NCBI RefSeq assembly: GCF_963921235.1
Contig: NC_086097.1
Span: 148,244,001-148,308,000 of the forward strand
Direction of reading: 5' to 3'
Source of the DNA: Mobula hypostoma
Lineage: Eukaryota
Length of the DNA: 64,000 bases
Below, in pieces: positions 7,200 through 49,767 of the stretch. The notes beneath the pieces are model-generated. The model did no database searches, was not told the DNA's origin, and saw only the letters and a program-made list of their open reading frames with translations. The position numbers and the translations under genes are program-made. Numbering within the stretch: the first letter of the stretch is position 1; the number at the start of each line of letters is the position of its first letter.

Positions 7200-7526
7200 T
7201 TAACAGAAGTTAGAGAAGTCAATGTTCATGCCATCAGGTTGGCGGCTACCCAGATGGAATATAAGGTGTTGTTCCTCCAACCTGAGTGTGGCTTCATCTT
7301 GACAGTAGAGGAGGCCATGGATAGACATATCAGAATGGGAATGGAACGTGGAATTAAAATGTGTGGCCACTGGGAGAACCTGCTTTCTCTGGCGGACAGA
7401 GCGTAGGTGTTCAGCGAAACGGTCTCCCAGCCTGCATTGGGTCTCGCCAATATATAGAAGGCCGCACTGGGAGCACCGGACGCAGTATATCACCCCAGCT
7501 GACTCACAGGTGAAGTGTCGCCTCAC
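7200..7526 (-). pseudogene. GIY-YIG endonuclease domain of a Penelope-like element
   Basis: FTCESAGVIYCVRCSQCGLLYIGETQCRLGDRFAEHLRSV...VATHFN...RLEEQHLIFHLG: VIY/YIG motifs with the CxxC of PLE endonucleases. Confidence 0.9.
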
Positions 7527-7981
7527 CTGTAAGGACTGTCTGGGGCCCTGAATGGTAGTAAGGGAGGAAGTGTAAGGGCATGTGTAGCATTTGTTCCGCT
7601 TACAAGGATAAGTGCCTGGAGGGAGATCGGTGGGAAGGGATGGGGGGATGAATGGATAAGGGAGTCGCGTAGGGAGCGATTCCTGCGGAAAGCAGAAGTG
7701 GGGGGGGGGGAGGGAAAGATGTGTTTGGTGGTGGGATCCCGTCGGATGTGGCGGAAATTACGGAGAATTATATATTGGACCCGAAGGCTGGTGGGGTGGT
7801 AGGTGAAGACAAGGGGAACCCTATCCTTAGTGGGGTGGTGGGAGGAGGGGGTGAGAGCCTTGTATCTCTTTTGCCAATCAACTTTTCAGCTCTGAGCTCC
7901 ATGCCTCCCCCTCCTGTCTTCTCCTATCATTTCGGATCTCACCCTCCCACTTTCAAATCTCTTACTATCTCTCCTTTCAGT

Positions 7982-18030: not shown

Positions 18031-18986
18031 ATCTAATGAAGGGAAGTATCCTTTATGCCTTCTTAATCCATGCTATTGAGATTAGCTGTCAGTCACAAAT
18101 GGAATCTGTTACTGATATTGCTCATGAAATCCATAAAGAAGCCATCAAATTTGAATAATTGTTAAGGGAAAGTGGATGGTTGCAAGAAGTGATTCTTTAT
18201 CTGAAGGTGAATTCCAGTCTGTCAAGTACCACAATGTCAGACTTGCTAATTCAAATATTGTAGATGCCCAAAGGCCATGGATTAACTTTAGTGTTGATTT
18301 GTTTACTTTGGTGACGATTTATTTGCTATTGTCAATGTCCACAATGCATCACTTGTTGCGGAAGTTGCTAGTTCTATGCTTGCGAAAGCTGCCATCCTAA
18401 AATTTCATTGGGCATATTTGCAGTACTGTACTTGAATTGCATACAGTGAGCAGAGATAATACACTGCAGTCAATGGTGATAAATTAAGGAAGTATACAAC
18501 CTATTTAGGTTTCACCTGCAGGATAATCATGTCTCCCTGGCCAATGGTGGTGTGGTTATTTATCCAAAACTAAAGAAAGTTATCAGCACTGCTCCTGGTA
18601 AAGTAATTCATGGTAACAAAATGTTGGTTGTATTTTATAAACATTACATTTACCAACAGGGATACTGCCAGTTGCAATAATTTTTGCAAAACCAATTTAT
18701 AACACACATGCCTTCAATAAGTATTCCAGGAGAAGACAATCAGTATCCAAATGAGTCTAACAAAGTCAGGAAAGATGGTGTGAAAAATGCAAAGATGTAT
18801 TTGATATTCAGGCTTATGACATTAACATGTGTGTACACAGGTCTAATGCAACACAATAAATCAGACAAATAGAAAACTCCATGCTTCAAGTGATTGCTGC
18901 AACATGATCATGATCTCAGTATTGCATGGTCTGTAAAGCATTGCACAACAGCTCCTACCGTTGTTAAATCTTTCTTTTGGTTATAC

Positions 18987-19253
18987 TGTTGTGTAGTTAA
19001 GATTTCAGTAATACCTGAGTAATCTTGTGTGTGTAAGTATATATATATATATATATATAAAATTTGATCAAGCATTCTTGTTAGTTTAAATAATTCACTA
19101 TGGGTTATATGTAAAAATGTGTGAATTGCATATGTCATCATGCTACCACATGATATCTGTGCATCTCGCATAAACACAAAGTTAGACTTACATTTCACAC
19201 CCCTATTTCTTCCTTTGAATTATTTTAATGTTTTGAAGTTGCAAAACTTAACA
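18987..19253 (+). repeat. 5' LTR
   Basis: tgttgtgta...caaaacttaaca, a direct repeat of 21692-21945. Contains (TA)n at ~19038-19058. Confidence 0.9.
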
Positions 19254-19517
19254 GTGGTGATGAGGTCTTTTTAAACGAACCTGAGGCAGCTCCCTACCTG
19301 TTGAAGCACAGCAAGACACTTGAACTAAAAGAAAGTGCAGTGAGGAATGATGAGTAAAAAACAGTGCAGCATGTGCAGAGATAGTTCAGTTAAAAAAAAC
19401 AGAACAGCATATACATAAGGGAAGACCTGATCATGTAAAAATAAGCTGGAAAACAACAATTCACAGCTTCGTAAACAGTGAATACCGGATAATAATATTC
19501 ATTTTAAAAAATCACAA

Positions 19518-20761
19518 ATGGCTGGCTACATAAGAATGATTGATGAATTTGATTACAGAATGGATAACTGGCTCATGTATACTGAGATAATTCAACAGTA
19601 TTTTGAAGCAAATGAAATAGTCAATGAGAAACAAATACCAATTTCGCTGAGTACATTGGGTTTAGAGATGTATAGATTGCTTCAAAGTTTGACTGCTCCA
19701 ACCGAACCATCAGAAATGAGCTTTGCTGATATTGTGAAAGTAACACAGGAATATTTAGAACTGAAGCCATTGTTGATTGTGGAACACCTTTGGCTTCATA
19801 GGCAGAATCAAAAAGAAGGTGAGTTCAATTCAGCGTCTGTGGCTGAATTGAAGAGATTGTCTGAGCTTTGTCAGTTTGGTAATGGGCTTAATGAAGCACT
19901 GAGAGATTGTTTAGTTTGTGAAATCTTAAATGAAAGCCCTCAAAAATGGCTCCTAATTAAAGCACAACTTACATTTAAAAATAGAGCAGCTGAAATAGCT
20001 TTATTAATGGAAACAGCAGACACAGAATAACTGAGTTACCATTAGGAATGAAGGCGATTGTGAACAAAATTGCAACGTCTAAACAGAAAACGACTTGGTT
20101 GGACAAATTGTGTTACCATTGTAGCAGGGGTTCACATACACCAGACCAATGCAGGCTTAAAGGTGAATCTTGAAGAAAATGCAATAAAGTCGGACATATG
20201 CAAAGAGCATGTTGGGCAGACGAAAATAAATGGTCTGCACAGGGAAGAGAAAAAGCTAACAAGTCCAGTTGCAACTTCAAAGAGAGCACTGATCTGCACA
20301 CTGTTGATGAAAAATCTGATAATGCTGAGAGTGACACAGGACTGTGTAGCCTTGAGATTTACAATATGAAAGCTAATAATAGACAAGCAATATGGCTTAT
20401 ACCTGAAATAAAACAGCAAATTAGTTATAATGGAATTGGACACTGGTTTGGCTGTTACAGTCATTCCATAAAACAAGTTTGAACAGCATTTCAAAGATAC
20501 TGAACTGAAACCTGCGGATATTCTATTAAGAACTTATATCAGAGAAAAGAAAACTTTTGTAGGCATGACATTTGTGAAGGTCAAGTACAATAACCAACAG
20601 GCCACATTGAGCTTGTAAATGGTTAAAACCAGGCGGATAGCATTGTGGGAGTATGGCTGGTTGAGACAACTACAACCTGATTGGAGATCCATCCACCATT
20701 TCCATGCCATATTTCCTATAATAAAGTCAACTGAAAGTGAAAAATACTGGATGATGCCACA
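19518..20761 (+). pseudogene. Gypsy gag (capsid, two CCHC zinc knuckles) and aspartic protease, decayed
   Basis: ORF 19518..20030 (W..Y.E...QYFEAN...Q.EGE....VAELKRLSELCQFG..LNEALRD.LVC). CYHCSRGSHTPDQC at 20111-20152, *RKCNKVGHMQRAC at 20171-20212, MELDTGLAVTVIP at 20430. Confidence 0.85.
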
Positions 20762-20811
20762 ATTATGTCCATGCTGTAGACATGAACTGCTCCCTAACAG
20801 AGTACAAATGG

Positions 20812-21374
20812 GTGTTGGTGCCAGCTTTTGAGCCTCTGGTGGGAAAGCGTATTGGACTAAGGAAGGACCATGCTGCTCAGACAAATCGTGAAAGTGACGA
20901 AAGCAGTGGTCTGACTACAGCAGTCTTTGTAGTCACATATCTGAGAAAGCTTCTGATATGTTAATCAGGCAATTACTTGCAAAATGTGGCTTGGTTTTAA
21001 GTTGGAAAAGAGTTCAAGGAGGTTCAGTAAAGATGCAACCATTCAGCTTTTGTGAGTAAAAAGAACCAGAATCTACTCTGTGTGCATTAAGGTTATTGCA
21101 TGAACTTCAAGTGCGAGACAAAAAGCTGCTTCTATTAGTAGATGCAAAGACCAAAGCCCAGCTGGCTGAATGGAAGGCAAAAAGAAAGGAGTCAATGGAG
21201 ATATGAAAATAGAGGATTTGTCAGATGATATTGTGGATGAGGAAACCAAAAAGAGAGATCAAATTATAAAGGGAGCAACAGAAGGATTAATAAGGGAATA
21301 CTCCAGTGAACTAAATTCAGCTTCCCAAGATCAAAATGCACAAACTAGGAGAAGAAAAAGGAAGGAAAAGAAAG
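20812..21374 (+). pseudogene. RBM25: Processed (intronless) RBM25 fragment including the RRM domain
   Basis: Reads VLVPAFEPLVGKRIGLRKDH...TTAVFV / ISEKASDMLIRQLLAKCGLVLSWKRVQGGSVKMQPFSFCE*KEPESTLCALRLLHELQVRDKKLLLLVDAKTKAQLAEWKAK / KKGVNG...DEETKKRDQIIKGATEGLIREYSSELN...RRRKRKEKK. This matches vertebrate RBM25 as I recall it. Frameshifts at ~20935 and ~21183; stop at 21057-21059. Confidence 0.92.
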
Positions 21375-21691
21375 GTGTTCAGAGCTGTCAGAGCCACTTC
21401 TTGCAGTCTCAGAGTCAACTCCTACAACCACCACAGAGGAGGCCCCTGAACCTGATACTGTATTCACAGCCACAAGTCTCACCTGCCAAGCAGAGTGACC
21501 TCCATTGTAAGAAGGAAGAGTATGAAGTCCTCCACAGGGATTAGATCTTTAGGCCTGATTGGGATAATTTAGATTTTACTATGCTGTGGATGTCTGTATA
21601 GTAGTAGCTGTATTATATAGTATAATGCGTATATAATTGAGATGCATTCTCTATCGAGCTGGAGTTTATAGCAACTGTAAACAGGGAGGAG

Positions 21692-21945
21692 TGTTGTGTA
21701 TTTAGTATTTCCATAATATTTGAGTAATCTTGTATGTATGTCATTTGATTAAGCATTATTGTTCATTTAAATAATTCATTACAGGTTACATGTAAAAAGA
21801 CGACAATTGCATAAGTCATCACATTGCCACATTACACTACCACATGATACTTTCACTTAAAGTAAATACGAGAGTAGACTCACATTTCAGACTGCCATGT
21901 CGTCCTTTGAATTAGTTTCACGTTTTGAAGTTACAAAACATAACA
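21692..21945 (+). repeat. 3' LTR
   Basis: tgttgtgta...caaaacataaca, immediately after the polypurine tract. Confidence 0.9.
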
Positions 21946-22464
21946 GATGCTGTATTATGTTATTGATATTTTATGTTAATATACTTCCTGACATGCCTGG
22001 CGCGCCCAGTGTCTTGGGTGTGGTGTGGCAATAAAGTTCTTTTTGTTTTGCCCTGTGCTCAGCAACCAATTTGTATTACTAATCACAGGCACATGGGTCA
22101 AAATATCACCTCAGTTCATCACCACATGCAAGGCTCTCAGATTCCTTCCTGTAGGATGAGTACTTCTGCAATTAAAGCATTATGAAAACTAGCCTATACC
22201 TGAATGAAGTAATACTAAATGAAAAATTGTAATTGGGGGTAATCTTGAATCAGAGATCATACCTACCTGTTGGTAATGAGTTGCCCAAGAAATCTGGAAA
22301 GCTGGGTAGGAGAAAAGCAAAACTGTTGTAGTTGGGCAGCAAACAAAGTGGCTGCTGAAGTTCTGTAAATTGCATATTTGCTTATTTTTATACATGTTTT
22401 GTTTTGAACCAGTAACATGGATTCCACAAAATTTCACTCTCCAGGATGGGATACATTTTCAGTA

Positions 22465-39135: not shown

Positions 39136-39384
39136 CTTGTCCCGTTATTAATTTTCTGACCTCGCTGGAGTCAGAAGAATGATGGTGGATCTCATTGAAA
39201 CCTATCGAATATTGAATGGCCTAGAAAGAGCAGACGTAGTTAGGATGTTTCCTATAATAGGGGAGTCTATGATCAGAGAACACTCCTTCAGAATAGAAGG
39301 ACGTCCTTTTAGAATAGAGATTAGGAGGAATTTCCTTCACCAGAGGGTAGTGTATACTGTATGTGGAATTCATTGCCACAGATG

Positions 39385-42300
39385 CCCCTGGTCAGGGATA
39401 CTATTACAGCTACAGAAAGGGTGGGTAATGTAGCAGGATCCTCTTTTGAGTCAATATGGGTGGAAGTCAGGAACAGGAAGGGAGCAGTTACTCTACTGGG
39501 GGTATTCTATAGGCCCCCTGGTAGCAGCAGAGATACAGAGGAGCAGATTGGGAGGCAGATTTTGGAAAGGTGCAAAAATAACAGGGTTGTTATCATGGGT
39601 GACTTTAACTTCCCTAATATTGATTGGCACCTGATTAGTTCCAAGGGTTTAGATGGGGCAGGGTTTGTTAAGTGTGTCCAGGACGGATTCCTGTCACAGT
39701 ATGTGGACAGGCCGACCAGGGGGAATGCCATACTAGATCTTGTACTAGGTAATGAACCGGGTCAGGTCACAGATCTCTCAGTGGGTGAGCATCTGGGGGA
39801 CAGTGACCACCGCTCCCTGGCCTTTAGCATTATCATGGAAAAGGATAGAATCAGAGAGGACAGGAAAATTTTTAATTGGGGAAGGGCAACTTATGAGGCT
39901 ATAAGGCTAGAACTTGCGGGTGTCAATTGGGATGATGTTTTTGCAGGGAAATGTACTATGGACATATGGTCGATGTTTAGAGATCTCTTGCGGGATGTAA
40001 GGGATAAATTTGTCCCGGTGAGGAAGATAAAGAATGGTAGGGTGAAGGAACCATGGGTGACAAGTGAGGTGGAAAATTTAGTCAGGTGGAAGAAGGCAGC
40101 GTACATGAGGTTTAGGAAGCAAGGATCAGATGGCTCTGTTGAGGAATATAGGGAAGCAAGAAAGGAGCTTAAGAAGGGGCTGAGAAGAGCAAGAAGGCGG
40201 CATGAGAAGGCCTTGGCGAGTAGGATAAAGGAAAACCCCAAGGCATTCTTCAATTATGTGAAGAAAAAAAGGATGACAGGAGTGAAGGTAGGACCGATTA
40301 GAGATAAAGGTGGGAAGATGTTCCTGGAGGCTGTGGAAGTGAGCGAGGTCCTCAATGAATACTTCTCTTCGGTATTCACCAATGAGAGGGAACTTGATGA
40401 TGGTGAGGACAATATGAGTGAGGTTGATGTTCTGGAGCATGTTGATATTAAGGGAGAGGAGGTGTTGGAGTTGTTAAAATACATTAGGACAGATAAGTCC
40501 CCGGGGCCTGACGGAATATTCCCCAGGCTGCTCCATGAGGCGAGAGAAGAGATTGCTGAGCCTTTGGCTAGGATCTTTATGGCCTCGTTGTCCACGGGAA
40601 TGGTACCGGAGGATTGGAGGGAGGCGAATGTTGTTCCCTTGTTCAAAAAAGGTAGTAGGGATAGTCTGGGTAATTATAGACCACTGAGCCTTACGTCTGT
40701 GGTGGGAAAGCTGTTGGAAAAGATTCTTAGAGATAGGATCTATAGGCATTTAGAGAATCATGATCTGATCAGGGACAGTCAGCATGTCTTTGTGGAGGGC
40801 AGATCGTGTCTAACAAGCCTGATAGAGTTCTTTGAGAGGTGACCAGGCATATGGATGAGGGTAGTGCAGTGGATGTGATCTATATGGATTTTAGTAAGGC
40901 AATTGACAAGGTTCCACATGGTAGGCTCATTCAGAAAGTTAGAAGGCATGGGATCCATGGAAGTTTGGCCAGGTGGATTCAGAATTGGCTTGCCTGCAGA
41001 AGGCAGAGGGTGGTGGTGGAGGGACTACATTCAGATTAGAGGATTGTGACTAGTGGTGTCCCACAAGGATCTGTTCTGGGACCTCTACTTTTCGTGATTT
41101 TTATTAACGACCTGGATGTTGGGGTAGAAGAGTGGGTTGGCAAGTTTGCAGACGACACAAAGGTTGGTGGTGTTGTAGATAGTGTAGAGGATTGTCAAAG
41201 ATTGCAGAGAGACATTGATAGGATGTAGAAGTGGGCTGAGAAGTGGCAGATGGATTTCAACCCGGAGAAGTGTGAGGTGGTACACTTTGGAAGGACAAAC
41301 TCCAAGGCAGAGTACAAAGTAAATGGCAGGATACTTGGTAGTGTGGAGGAGCAGAGGGATCTCGGGGTACATGTCCACAGATCCCTGAAAGTTGCCTCAC
41401 AGGTGGATAGGGTAGTGAAGAAAGCTTATGGGGGGTGTTACGTACCCCGTAACTGGGTTGCCAAACCAGCAGAAATGGATCACTCAGTTGGAGTCTGGAG
41501 TACTAGAACTAAGAAAGTTTTATTAAAGAAACAAGTAACACAGTAATCGAAAGGATAATAAATGCAACAATTCAACAATGATAACCACACATGTGCACAG
41601 AATTAAGATAACAGCATCAATCAAGCTCTATCGTTGTCTAGGGGTAAATGACCAATTTCAAAATGACTCAAAGTTCAGGTCGCAGTAATCGTTGCCATGG
41701 CGATGGACAAGGTGGGGGAAGAGAGACGGAGAGAACAACTCATCATTCAGCACAGCTTCACTCACAGACCAGCGGGATGGCTCACAACCAGCTTTTGGGC
41801 AGGTCCTTGGTGATGTCACCTGAGGTCACCGACTGTGACCCCTCCTCCAGATGCGGTCGATCCTCTGCAGTGAACCCGGCACCCAGGCAAGGGCGGACAC
41901 ACACCGGGTTCCCGCTGATCGTACCTTTCCACCCTTGTCGTTGTCTGGGACTTCTCACCCACTCGTGAGAAGCGCACCGCTTCCAGGGTCTCGTTACCTC
42001 GGGTGGCGTGTGTGTCTGTCTTAGCGAACCTGTCCCTTTTTATCCCCCTGCTGGGGTATCGCCTGTCCATCACTTCAAACAGTTCAGGGTTCAAAGGGGG
42101 GAGCCGCTCCAGACAGCTCTTCCTCCCACATCCCTTCATTACACATCTCCAGACGCTGCTCCATTGTTCCTTATCTCTCCTTCCCCTGAGGGCAGGTGGC
42201 AGACCAACTGCTGATGCCACCGATGCTAGCCCAGGCCAGCAAACATCTTAATTTTATGTGTATTCTCGTAACAGGGGTTAGCTTTCCTAAGTCGAGGGAT

Positions 42301-48995: not shown

Positions 48996-49767
48996 TTTTA
49001 TGTTTTGAAACTCCAGAAATGAATCAAAAGAAAAACATGGGAGCCCAGGGATACACGTGTACTCAGCTTTACTTCAGTGAGGCCCGCAAATACAAAGTTT
49101 GCATGACGTGGTGGTTTAAGTTGCATACTGCCGACATTTAACCTTTAGTGAATTATGTAAACTAGAATGCTTAATCAAACAATATATTTACAATATTACT
49201 CAAATATTGGTGGTTGTGGTTGTCTGTTGTGTCTGACAATGACAGGAGACGTGTGAGGGACAGTCGTTAAGGTGGAAAAGCCATTGCACTGGGGAAGTTC
49301 CGTTCTCTCCACTTCAGAAGTCCGGCTCCAGTGGTATTAACAAGCGTCAGAAACTGGGGTCTTCCTTGGTTGCAGTGGATGACCATGACGTCTTCTGTGC
49401 CTTGTCTTGCCCTTTGCTCTCCACAGAGCATTGCAGTACCGCCTTCCAGACATTGGATCTCACTGCAGATCTCATTTTCCCAGTCTGCCGGAGCTGACTT
49501 CACATGCTAGGGAAATCTCACTGTGCTTTAAGGCTGCCGGCTACCTTCACCTGGTTTAGCCCGCCTGCTGAACCGGTGTACTGGATATAGTCATTATTGC
49601 ACGCGAACAGTTACTTGGAGTCACAGGTGAGAGGTGAGTGCCCAGTGGGGACCAAAGGAGAGTGAGCTGCCCCAGAATAGTCATGACAAGCCCCTTCACC
49701 AGAGCCGCTACCCCTTCCTAAATGCCCTACACACCCAAAATATTACTAAAATATTATATACACTACA
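48996..49767 (-). mobile_element. Solo LTR related to the 18987-21945 Gypsy element, interrupted by a retroposon
   Basis: aatgcttaatcaaa...attactcaaatatt...tacactaca and ttatgttttgaaactcca match the reverse complement of both LTR ends. Confidence 0.7.
49209..49737 (-). mobile_element. Short non-coding retroposon, RTE-derived-like (copy 2)
   Basis: Perfect 7-bp TSD aaatatt (49202-49208 and 49738-49744). Shares gcagtggatgacca.gacgtcttctgtg, ctggtttagcc and cacaggtgagag.tgagtgcc..gtggggaccaaagg with 1237-1797. Confidence 0.7.

What the first reader, a model, noticed from the sequence alone, without database searches (positions are those of the whole stretch)
18987..21945. Gypsy LTR retrotransposon that captured a spliced host RBM25 mRNA fragment in place of RT/RNaseH/integrase
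Seen in sequence: LTR, PBS, gag (2 CCHC), protease, a ~560-nt non-TE insert, a probable pol C-terminal tail, PPT and LTR. The insert (20812-21374) translates, with two 1-nt frameshifts and one stop, to the RRM region of the splicing factor RBM25. It is co-oriented with the element and has no introns. Established: vertebrate RBM25 is a multi-exon gene, and LTR elements and retroviruses can transduce cellular mRNA by template switching. Inference: a co-packaged RBM25 mRNA was copied during reverse transcription, giving a non-autonomous chimera that kept all cis signals and could have been mobilised in trans. This copy is now decayed.
Basis: partly seen in the sequence, partly recalled or inferred. 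Interest (0 to 1): 0.9.

Follow-up and report, generated by a model that had tools for sequence, protein, structure and literature searches.

The report
Retrotransposon family carrying spliced RBM25 piece
This is one dead copy of a jumping-gene family in a cartilaginous fish that long ago swapped its copying enzymes for a spliced piece of the host's RBM25 messenger RNA and then spread that piece to more than 1,500 places: a known kind of accident at an unusually large scale.

Summary
Confirmed and extended. 18987-21945 is a decayed Ty3/Gypsy element whose RT, RNase H and most of integrase are replaced by spliced RBM25 mRNA. I located the host gene in the same genome. The cargo is longer than reported (20755-21373): it crosses five host exon-exon joins with no intron, and includes an exon tail and a rarely annotated 48-nt exon. 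Both junctions sit on words shared by the host mRNA and the pol-bearing parent family (7 and 9 nt; random-point P about 6e-4 and 2e-4 or less), with no poly(A): the double template-switch signature of LTR-mediated retroposition (Tan 2016). It is a family, not a single event: 1,517 genomic matches to a cargo 24-mer (control 0), 30 of 30 fetched loci chimeric, a star tree, and nested cargo deletions. Decay is neutral. The fusion is in frame with gag-protease, and all 19 host-versus-family differences are synonymous. Host drift probably explains that; it was not polarised with an outgroup. The scan reported this family before on other DNA (e1-7790852). Verdict: a new member of a known kind, notable for copy number.

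The parts
18982..18986 (.). 5' half of a probable decayed 5-bp target-site duplication
   Evidence: 3 of 5 bases match 21946-21950; 10 of 15 over three copies; weak on its own
18987..19253 (+). 5' LTR (267 nt, with a TA microsatellite)
   Evidence: direct repeat of 21692-21945, 79.7% identical
19255..19265 (+). primer-binding site, CpG-decayed, complementary to tRNA-Ser(GCT)
19518..20220 (+). gag with two degraded CCHC knuckles, broken
   Evidence: aligns to P0121; zf-CCHC weak
20380..20761 (+). aspartic protease (catalytic D at 20439) and linker up to the point where the parent family runs on into RT; broken
20755..20761 (+). 5' switch point: 7-nt word shared by the parent element and the host exon tail
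20755..20764 (+). last 10 nt of host RBM25 exon 'E3' (exon labels are mine, after recalled human numbering)
20765..20811 (+). 48-nt in-frame alternative RBM25 exon 'EA' (36 of 47 bases identical; one stop, one deletion)
   Evidence: host exon with AG/GT ends at about C1:99832586-99832633
20812..20981 (+). RBM25 exon 'E4' (149 of 170 identical)
20982..21039 (+). RBM25 exon 'E5' (51 of 58)
21040..21199 (+). RBM25 exon 'E6' (145 of 160); E4-E6 hold the RRM
21200..21342 (+). 5' part of RBM25 exon 'E7' (124 of 144)
21343..21373 (+). remnants of exons 'E10' and 'E11' left by internal deletions (net 450 nt lost)
   Evidence: comparison with longer copies L022, L027, L009; purine-rich, so breakpoints are approximate
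21365..21373 (+). 3' switch point: 9-nt word shared by host exon 'E11' and the parent's integrase tail (one mismatch in this copy)
21374..21682 (+). C-terminal tail of pol (after the integrase core) and 3' untranslated region
   Evidence: parent-type loci L075-L085 carry the integrase tail directly upstream of this sequence
21683..21691 (+). polypurine tract
   Evidence: seen in 23 of 30 copies
21692..21945 (+). 3' LTR (254 nt)
21946..21950 (.). 3' half of the probable target-site duplication

Best explanation
A pol-bearing Ty3/Gypsy family (short LTRs, tRNA-Ser primer, gag-PR-RT-RH-IN in one frame) packaged a spliced RBM25 mRNA by chance. During minus-strand synthesis RT left the element's RNA at a 9-nt word in the integrase tail, copied about 1.07 kb of RBM25 mRNA (head of exon E11 back to the tail of E3), and returned to the element's RNA at a 7-nt word just before RT. 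The product kept both LTRs, PBS and PPT but lost RT, RH and the integrase core. Helper elements of the same family then mobilised it in trans to at least 1,500 sites in one old burst, during which the cargo shrank through successive internal deletions. The window copy is the commonest short type among those sampled, and has decayed neutrally since. The cargo was most likely a passenger. Shown: structure, splicing, junction words, parent family, copy number, star tree, neutral decay, nested deletions. Inferred: co-packaging, RT as the switching enzyme, mobilisation in trans, passenger status.
For: Five exon-exon joins are adjacent in the window. 21 of 25 loci fetched with the parent-type pattern run on into RT homology at the junction; RT is Ty3-like, and RH precedes the integrase zinc finger in L056. 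9 of 11 parent-type 3' loci carry the integrase tail up to the shared 9-mer. Random switch points give a shared word of 7 or more with P 6.2e-4, and of 9 or more with P 4e-5 (1.75e-4 in a purine-rich local null). 1,517 matches to a cargo 24-mer at up to 3 mismatches, one being the host gene; control 0. 227 chimera-type against 392 parent-type exact junction 21-mers. 30 of 30 fetched loci have element sequence on both sides of the cargo. The 5' junction lies at the same place in the copies that retain it. Star tree, end branches median 0.085. Copy-specific changes: 993 nonsynonymous, 375 synonymous, 66 stops, against 972, 386 and 75 expected without selection. Chimeric and parent-type gag-PR are equally old (0.131 and 0.123 from their group centres) and differ strongly at 1 of 723 sites, so there is little sign of a long separate history of the chimera. 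Tan et al. 2016 (PMC5131818) describe the same anatomy.
Against: The parent loci were found with patterns that already held the shared words, so parents lacking them could not appear; L075, found by the other pattern, supports the 3' word independently. The 30 loci are the best matches to the window copy, so they favour the short type and low divergence. The 1,517 matches were not inspected one by one. The target-site duplication rests on three copies. The 5' junction is in frame, and 19 of 19 fixed differences from the host gene are synonymous, which a selected fusion would also give. Recombination with helper RNA could have hidden a long chimera branch in gag-PR.
Confidence: 0.86

Rival explanations
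1. Same origin, but the cargo was useful. The chimera made a Gag-protease-RBM25(RRM) fusion, or used host-like RNA to blunt small-RNA silencing, and selection kept the RBM25 frame while the family spread.
For: The 5' junction is in frame: both partners read A-T over the shared word. Modal spacings between gag, knuckle, protease and junction anchors are multiples of three once two misplaced anchors are corrected by hand. 0 of 19 fixed differences change an amino acid. The commonest deletion keeps the frame (13 of 27 scored copies), and all sampled deletion types spare the RRM. Chimera-type junctions are 227 of 619 exact hits. Purifying selection on captured ORFs is reported for crocodilian ERVs (PMC4299795, sections 10 and 15 read). 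The camouflage idea comes from maize (10.1101/777037, search listing and start of the abstract only).
Against: An in-frame join occurs one time in three by chance. About 22 differences in 130 synonymous sites (0.17; the 19 plus three CpG-masked sites read by eye) is near the neutral decay of the copies (0.12-0.13 per copy), so host drift under host selection can explain it. Amino-acid-changing variants are shared among copies in exon EA (19 of 30 and 12 of 30) and in E7. Intermediate deletion types mostly shift the frame. Sparing of the RRM is biased by the query. No stop-free, indel-free cargo in 30 of 30 copies.
Confidence: 0.1
2. The chimera arose at the DNA level: an earlier LINE-made RBM25 retrocopy, or a cDNA used in break repair, recombined with an integrated Gypsy copy at the short shared words. 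The product was then amplified as an LTR element.
For: Microhomology-mediated DNA repair leaves the same junctions, and LINEs are abundant here (PMC-free preprint 10.64898/2026.10.27.761883, passage read).
Against: No poly(A) or separate duplication. The cargo is an internal piece cut at both ends and co-oriented. It needs two rare steps. Earlier notes report other mRNAs captured by Gypsy elements in this genome (unchecked), as recurrent co-packaging predicts.
Confidence: 0.04
3. The many copies came from segmental duplication or assembly artefact, not retrotransposition.
For: The window copy and L002, 1.1 Mb away, share an indel, two stops and a starred branch.
Against: Copies lie on many contigs and both strands (759 and 758), are about 85% alike, have different sequence outside the LTRs where read, and form a star tree.
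Confidence: 0.01

Closest known systems
LTR-mediated retrocopies of animals (Tan et al. 2016, Genome Res 26:1663, PMC5131818; passages and section 5 read)
   Same: Internal ORFs replaced by a partial mRNA, microsimilarity at both switch points (median 6 bp there; 7 and 9 here), both LTRs kept, no poly(A), further rounds as a non-autonomous element.
   Different: Their cases are young; in section 5, 18 insertion sites were found for nine Drosophila retrocopies. This one is old (LTRs 20% apart), has at least 1,500 copies and shows nested cargo deletions.
Crocodilian ERV gene captures: nectin3 in CrocERV31, KIT-ligand in CrocERV29 (PMC4299795; abstract, sections 10 and 15 read)
   Same: Ancient capture of a host mRNA by an LTR element of a non-mammalian vertebrate, amplified afterwards, with deletion derivatives.
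   Different: Retroviral rather than Gypsy; env replaced or nothing lost; six insertions for nectin3; whole ORFs under purifying selection. Here pol is lost and the copies decay neutrally.
Maize Bs1 and human HERV-K/FAM8A1 (only as summarised in Tan 2016)
   Same: Non-autonomous LTR element with transduced host mRNA pieces.
   Different: Other hosts and element classes; their copy numbers were not checked here.
Mag clades of Ty3/Gypsy (LTR end motifs in PMC3601003, passages read)
   Same: Short LTRs. By eye the ends fit the Mag A 5' motif fully and its 3' motif at 11 of 12, and the Mag C 3' motif fully and its 5' motif at 7 of 8. Two CCHC knuckles and a tRNA-Ser primer are recalled as Mag-like.
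   Different: No RT tree was built; clade membership is a lead only.

Membership tests
LTR-mediated retrocopy (Tan 2016) | Intronless copy of a multi-exon host mRNA | tested here: met
   five exon joins adjacent in the window
LTR-mediated retrocopy (Tan 2016) | Internal element ORFs replaced, not interrupted | tested here: met
   parent continues into RT at the 5' junction and carries the integrase tail at the 3' junction
LTR-mediated retrocopy (Tan 2016) | Microsimilarity at the switch points beyond chance | tested here: met
   7 and 9 nt; null P 6e-4 and 2e-4 or less; parents were ascertained by patterns holding the words
LTR-mediated retrocopy (Tan 2016) | Both LTRs present | tested here: met
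LTR-mediated retrocopy (Tan 2016) | No poly(A) tail or LINE-type duplication around the cargo | tested here: met
   longest A run 5; junctions fully explained by parent and host sequence
LTR-mediated retrocopy (Tan 2016) | Further rounds as a non-autonomous element | tested here: met
   1,517 matches, shared junctions, 19 shared differences from the host gene
LTR-mediated retrocopy (Tan 2016) | Co-transcription with the flanking element | not tested
   no reads were laid
Ty3/Gypsy (parent family) | pol order PR-RT-RH-IN | tested here: met
   PR then RT; RH end then integrase zinc finger in L056, read by eye
Ty3/Gypsy (parent family) | RT closest to Ty3-type RT | tested here: met
   Ty3 RT structures E 1.5e-12 and 7e-12, foamy-type E 2e-5; Pfam RVT_1 over the cut-off for L057
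Ty3/Gypsy (parent family) | PBS, PPT, TG..CA ends | tested here: met
Ty3/Gypsy (parent family) | 4-6 bp target-site duplication | tested here: inconclusive
   10 of 15 bases in 3 copies; 8 of the 11 stretches examined had an end missing or misplaced
Mag clade | RT groups with Mag references in a tree | not tested
   no reference RTs at hand
Mag clade | Short LTRs with Mag end motifs | tested here: met
   254-267 nt; motifs compared by eye with Table 3 of PMC3601003
LINE-mediated processed pseudogene | 3' poly(A), 5' truncation only, own target-site duplication | tested here: not met
   cut at both ends, no poly(A)
Functional retrogene / selected capture | Intact frame or purifying selection on the copies | tested here: not met
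   copy-specific changes neutral; 0 of 30 sampled cargos free of stops and indels
Functional retrogene / selected capture | Purifying selection on the element's branch before the burst | tested here: inconclusive
   19 of 19 fixed differences synonymous but not polarised; indirect test finds no long element branch

The most novel reading that the evidence does not exclude
The capture was not a passive accident. Carrying in-frame RNA of an essential splicing regulator helped a pol-less Gypsy element spread, either through a Gag-protease-RRM fusion or by making small-RNA silencing costly to the host. It reached over a third of the family's junctions, and the same strategy recurred with other housekeeping mRNAs (SUDS3, USP35; earlier notes, unchecked). 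This would be a vertebrate case of gene-capture camouflage on the scale of thousands of copies.
Probability: 0.1. Interest if true: 0.82.

Novelty: new member of a known kind. Interest (0 to 1): 0.48.

Why it matters
It is a clean vertebrate example of LTR-mediated gene capture with the parent element, the host gene and both switch points all readable in one genome. Its copy number is far above the published cases I read. More than 1,500 RBM25-like pieces can mislead gene annotation, gene-family counts and read mapping in these fishes. The copies also record an mRNA isoform of that time, with a 48-nt exon found in only 1 of 121 proteins fetched. With the host gene as an internal clock, the family makes one question testable: does captured host RNA help a transposon spread in an animal germline?

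Tried and rejected
P0121 as query retrieved another Gypsy family: 0 of 12 loci aligned to the element at the match; one held a separate fragment. The parent was then found by junction patterns. My early idea that the cargo began and ended at exon boundaries (trans-splicing or circular RNA) was dropped once the exon tail and the alternative exon were found. PDB search with the short ORF found nothing. A search for annotated proteins spanning the cargo-tail junction scored none of 3 candidates. The metagenome scan gave one locus, no use as an outgroup. Sequencing-run search: no RNA holder listed; 23 rows of 8 coded organisms hold host exon words, none laid, so no evidence is drawn. No reads were laid, so outgroup alleles, exon inclusion and expression stay open. 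The attempt to refine LTR ends gave meaningless alignments and was ignored. Two anchors were off by 2 and 1 bases; frames were corrected by hand. Trees did not settle (bootstrap correlation 0.85 and 0.64), so only the star shape and the L001/L002 pair are used. Rows dropped: 3 of 30 chimeric and 2 of 25 pattern loci; 3 of 30. No absolute age is given, for lack of a tested rate. Literature: RBM25+retrotransposon+shark 0 papers; RBM25+pseudogenes+stingray 0; RBM25+retrocopy 1, off topic by its listing; the manta and devil ray genome preprint has no 'RBM25' in its main text, and its supplements could not be seen; searches listed nothing on this family. Repbase, Dfam and subscription journals were not searchable.

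Full report
Setting. The window is G000:C1:148244001-148308000 of a 3.48-Gb assembly. The host is a cartilaginous fish by the best RBM25 hit (shark, 86%); the label 'ray' comes from earlier scan notes and was not tested.

The element. 18987-19253 and 21692-21945 are direct repeats with TG..CA ends, 79.7% identical, K2P 0.24. Three other copies give 0.25-0.26, two of them with imprecise ends. The 5' LTR is followed by a CpG-decayed site complementary to a tRNA-Ser(GCT) gene of this genome, and a polypurine tract precedes the 3' LTR in 23 of 30 copies. Gag, two knuckles and a protease align to a gag-PR-RT protein (E 8e-36). The 5-bp flanks match at 3 of 5 here and at 10 of 15 over the three copies with both ends placed (P 0.0015).

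The cargo. A Pfam PWI search led to the host RBM25 gene on the same contig at about 99.8 Mb. Exon labels are mine, after recalled human numbering; exons 1-2 were not fetched. The window holds the tail of E3, a 48-nt in-frame alternative exon, E4, E5, E6 and most of E7, joined base to base at all five exon boundaries, 87.5% identical to the host. The cargo thus starts at 20755, not 20812. At all six residues where host and shark differ, most copies follow the host (22-28 of 30), so the capture postdates the split from that shark's lineage.

A family. The insert gave 2,882 first-look candidates; the 40 scored were 84-89% identical apart from the window itself. All 30 fetched loci have element sequence on both sides. 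A CpG-free cargo 24-mer matches 1,517 places at up to 3 mismatches, control 0, one being the host gene; 28 of the 30 sampled copies would be caught by it. About 1,500-3,000 copies is my estimate. The longest copies (L022, L027, L009) continue through E9 and E10 into the head of E11, about 1.07 kb of mRNA. Shorter types form a nested series: host-like long, long with a 2-nt change in E7, an E7-to-E10 deletion, and the short type of the window (net 450 nt lost; exactly so in 13 of 27 scored copies). The sample favours the short type, because the window was the query.

The junctions. A 21-mer ending at the 5' junction has 227 exact chimera-type and 392 parent-type hits. Of 25 loci fetched with the parent-type pattern, 21 run on into RT homology, 3 are interrupted and 1 is another RBM25 chimera. 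The RT is Ty3-like, and RH precedes integrase. Parent and host exon share 7 nt at the switch. At the 3' end, 9 of 11 parent-type loci carry the integrase tail up to a 9-nt word shared with E11. Random switch points give P 6.2e-4 and 4e-5, or 1.75e-4 with a purine-rich null. Caveat: the patterns contained these words; L075, found by the other pattern, supports the 3' word. There is no poly(A).

Selection. The window copy against the host gives dN 0.097 and dS 0.296, which looks like constraint. Copy-specific changes are neutral, however (993:375:66 observed, 972:386:75 expected), the tree is a star, and none of 30 cargos is free of stops and indels. The low ratio comes from 19 differences shared by the family, all synonymous. 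These lie either on the host's branch or on the element's branch before the burst. An outgroup would tell, and none was obtained. Indirectly, chimeric and parent-type gag-protease are equally old (0.131, 0.123) and nearly indistinguishable (1 of 723 sites), and the host's synonymous distance (about 0.17) is near the copies' neutral decay. Host drift is therefore the simpler reading. For the rival: the 5' join is in frame (a one-in-three chance), and the commonest deletion keeps the frame. Against it: amino-acid changes shared among copies in the alternative exon and E7, and frame-shifting intermediate deletions.

Mechanism. Shown: structure, splicing, shared words, parent family, amplification, neutral decay. 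Inferred from the model of Tan et al. 2016 (PMC5131818; passages and section 5 read): co-packaging of RBM25 mRNA, two RT template switches, mobilisation by helper elements. Confidence 0.86. A helpful cargo gets 0.10, a DNA-level origin 0.04, segmental duplication 0.01.

Comparison and novelty. Six of the seven defining features I list for LTR-mediated retrocopies were tested and met; transcription was not tested. The parent is Ty3/Gypsy. Mag affinity rests on LTR length and end motifs (PMC3601003, passages) and on recall. The nearest vertebrate parallels are the crocodilian ERV captures (PMC4299795, abstract and two sections), with few copies and selected ORFs. My searches found no paper on this family; repeat databases, subscription journals and preprint supplements were out of reach. 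The scan noted the same family at another locus (e1-7790852) and other captures in this genome (unchecked, not counted as support). This report adds the host gene, both junctions resolved against the parent, the extra exon, the copy count, the deletion series and the selection test.

Verdict. Interest 0.48. The boldest reading not excluded, that the cargo helped the element spread, has probability about 0.1 and would merit 0.82.

Noticed in passing
G000:C1 about 99832586-99832633, minus strand (L038): A 48-nt in-frame alternative exon of host RBM25. 14 of 14 residues are identical in the shark protein model P0001, and it occurs in 1 of 121 fetched proteins. The copies show it was spliced in when the mRNA was captured.
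   Followed up: partly
L056:2720-2810 (element orientation) and L078: Parent-type deletion derivatives in which the integrase zinc-finger region joins the same 3' tail site as the RBM25 chimera; possibly a hot spot for switching back.
   Followed up: partly
L007, about 2056-2241 in element orientation: An RBM25 chimera that rejoins the parent's integrase about 190 nt further upstream than the others, suggesting later recombination with helper RNA.
   Followed up: partly
L024: Two RBM25 cargos in tandem within one locus.
   Followed up: no
window 20681-21280 against L002 (1.1 Mb away, same strand): The two copies share an indel and two stops and are 88-93% alike here, against 74-87% elsewhere, although they are different deletion types; perhaps an ectopic conversion tract.
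   Followed up: partly
window 49134-49208, minus strand: Short fragment of the same family's LTR.
   Followed up: no
window 39325-40842 (+) and 7200-7757 (-): A 505-aa LINE-type endonuclease/RT frame and a GIY-YIG-like frame, named by eye from recall.
   Followed up: no
host RBM25 between 'E7' and 'E9' (L036): A motif search found no counterpart of the short proline-rich exon recalled from human RBM25, and the long copies join E7 directly to E9.
   Followed up: partly
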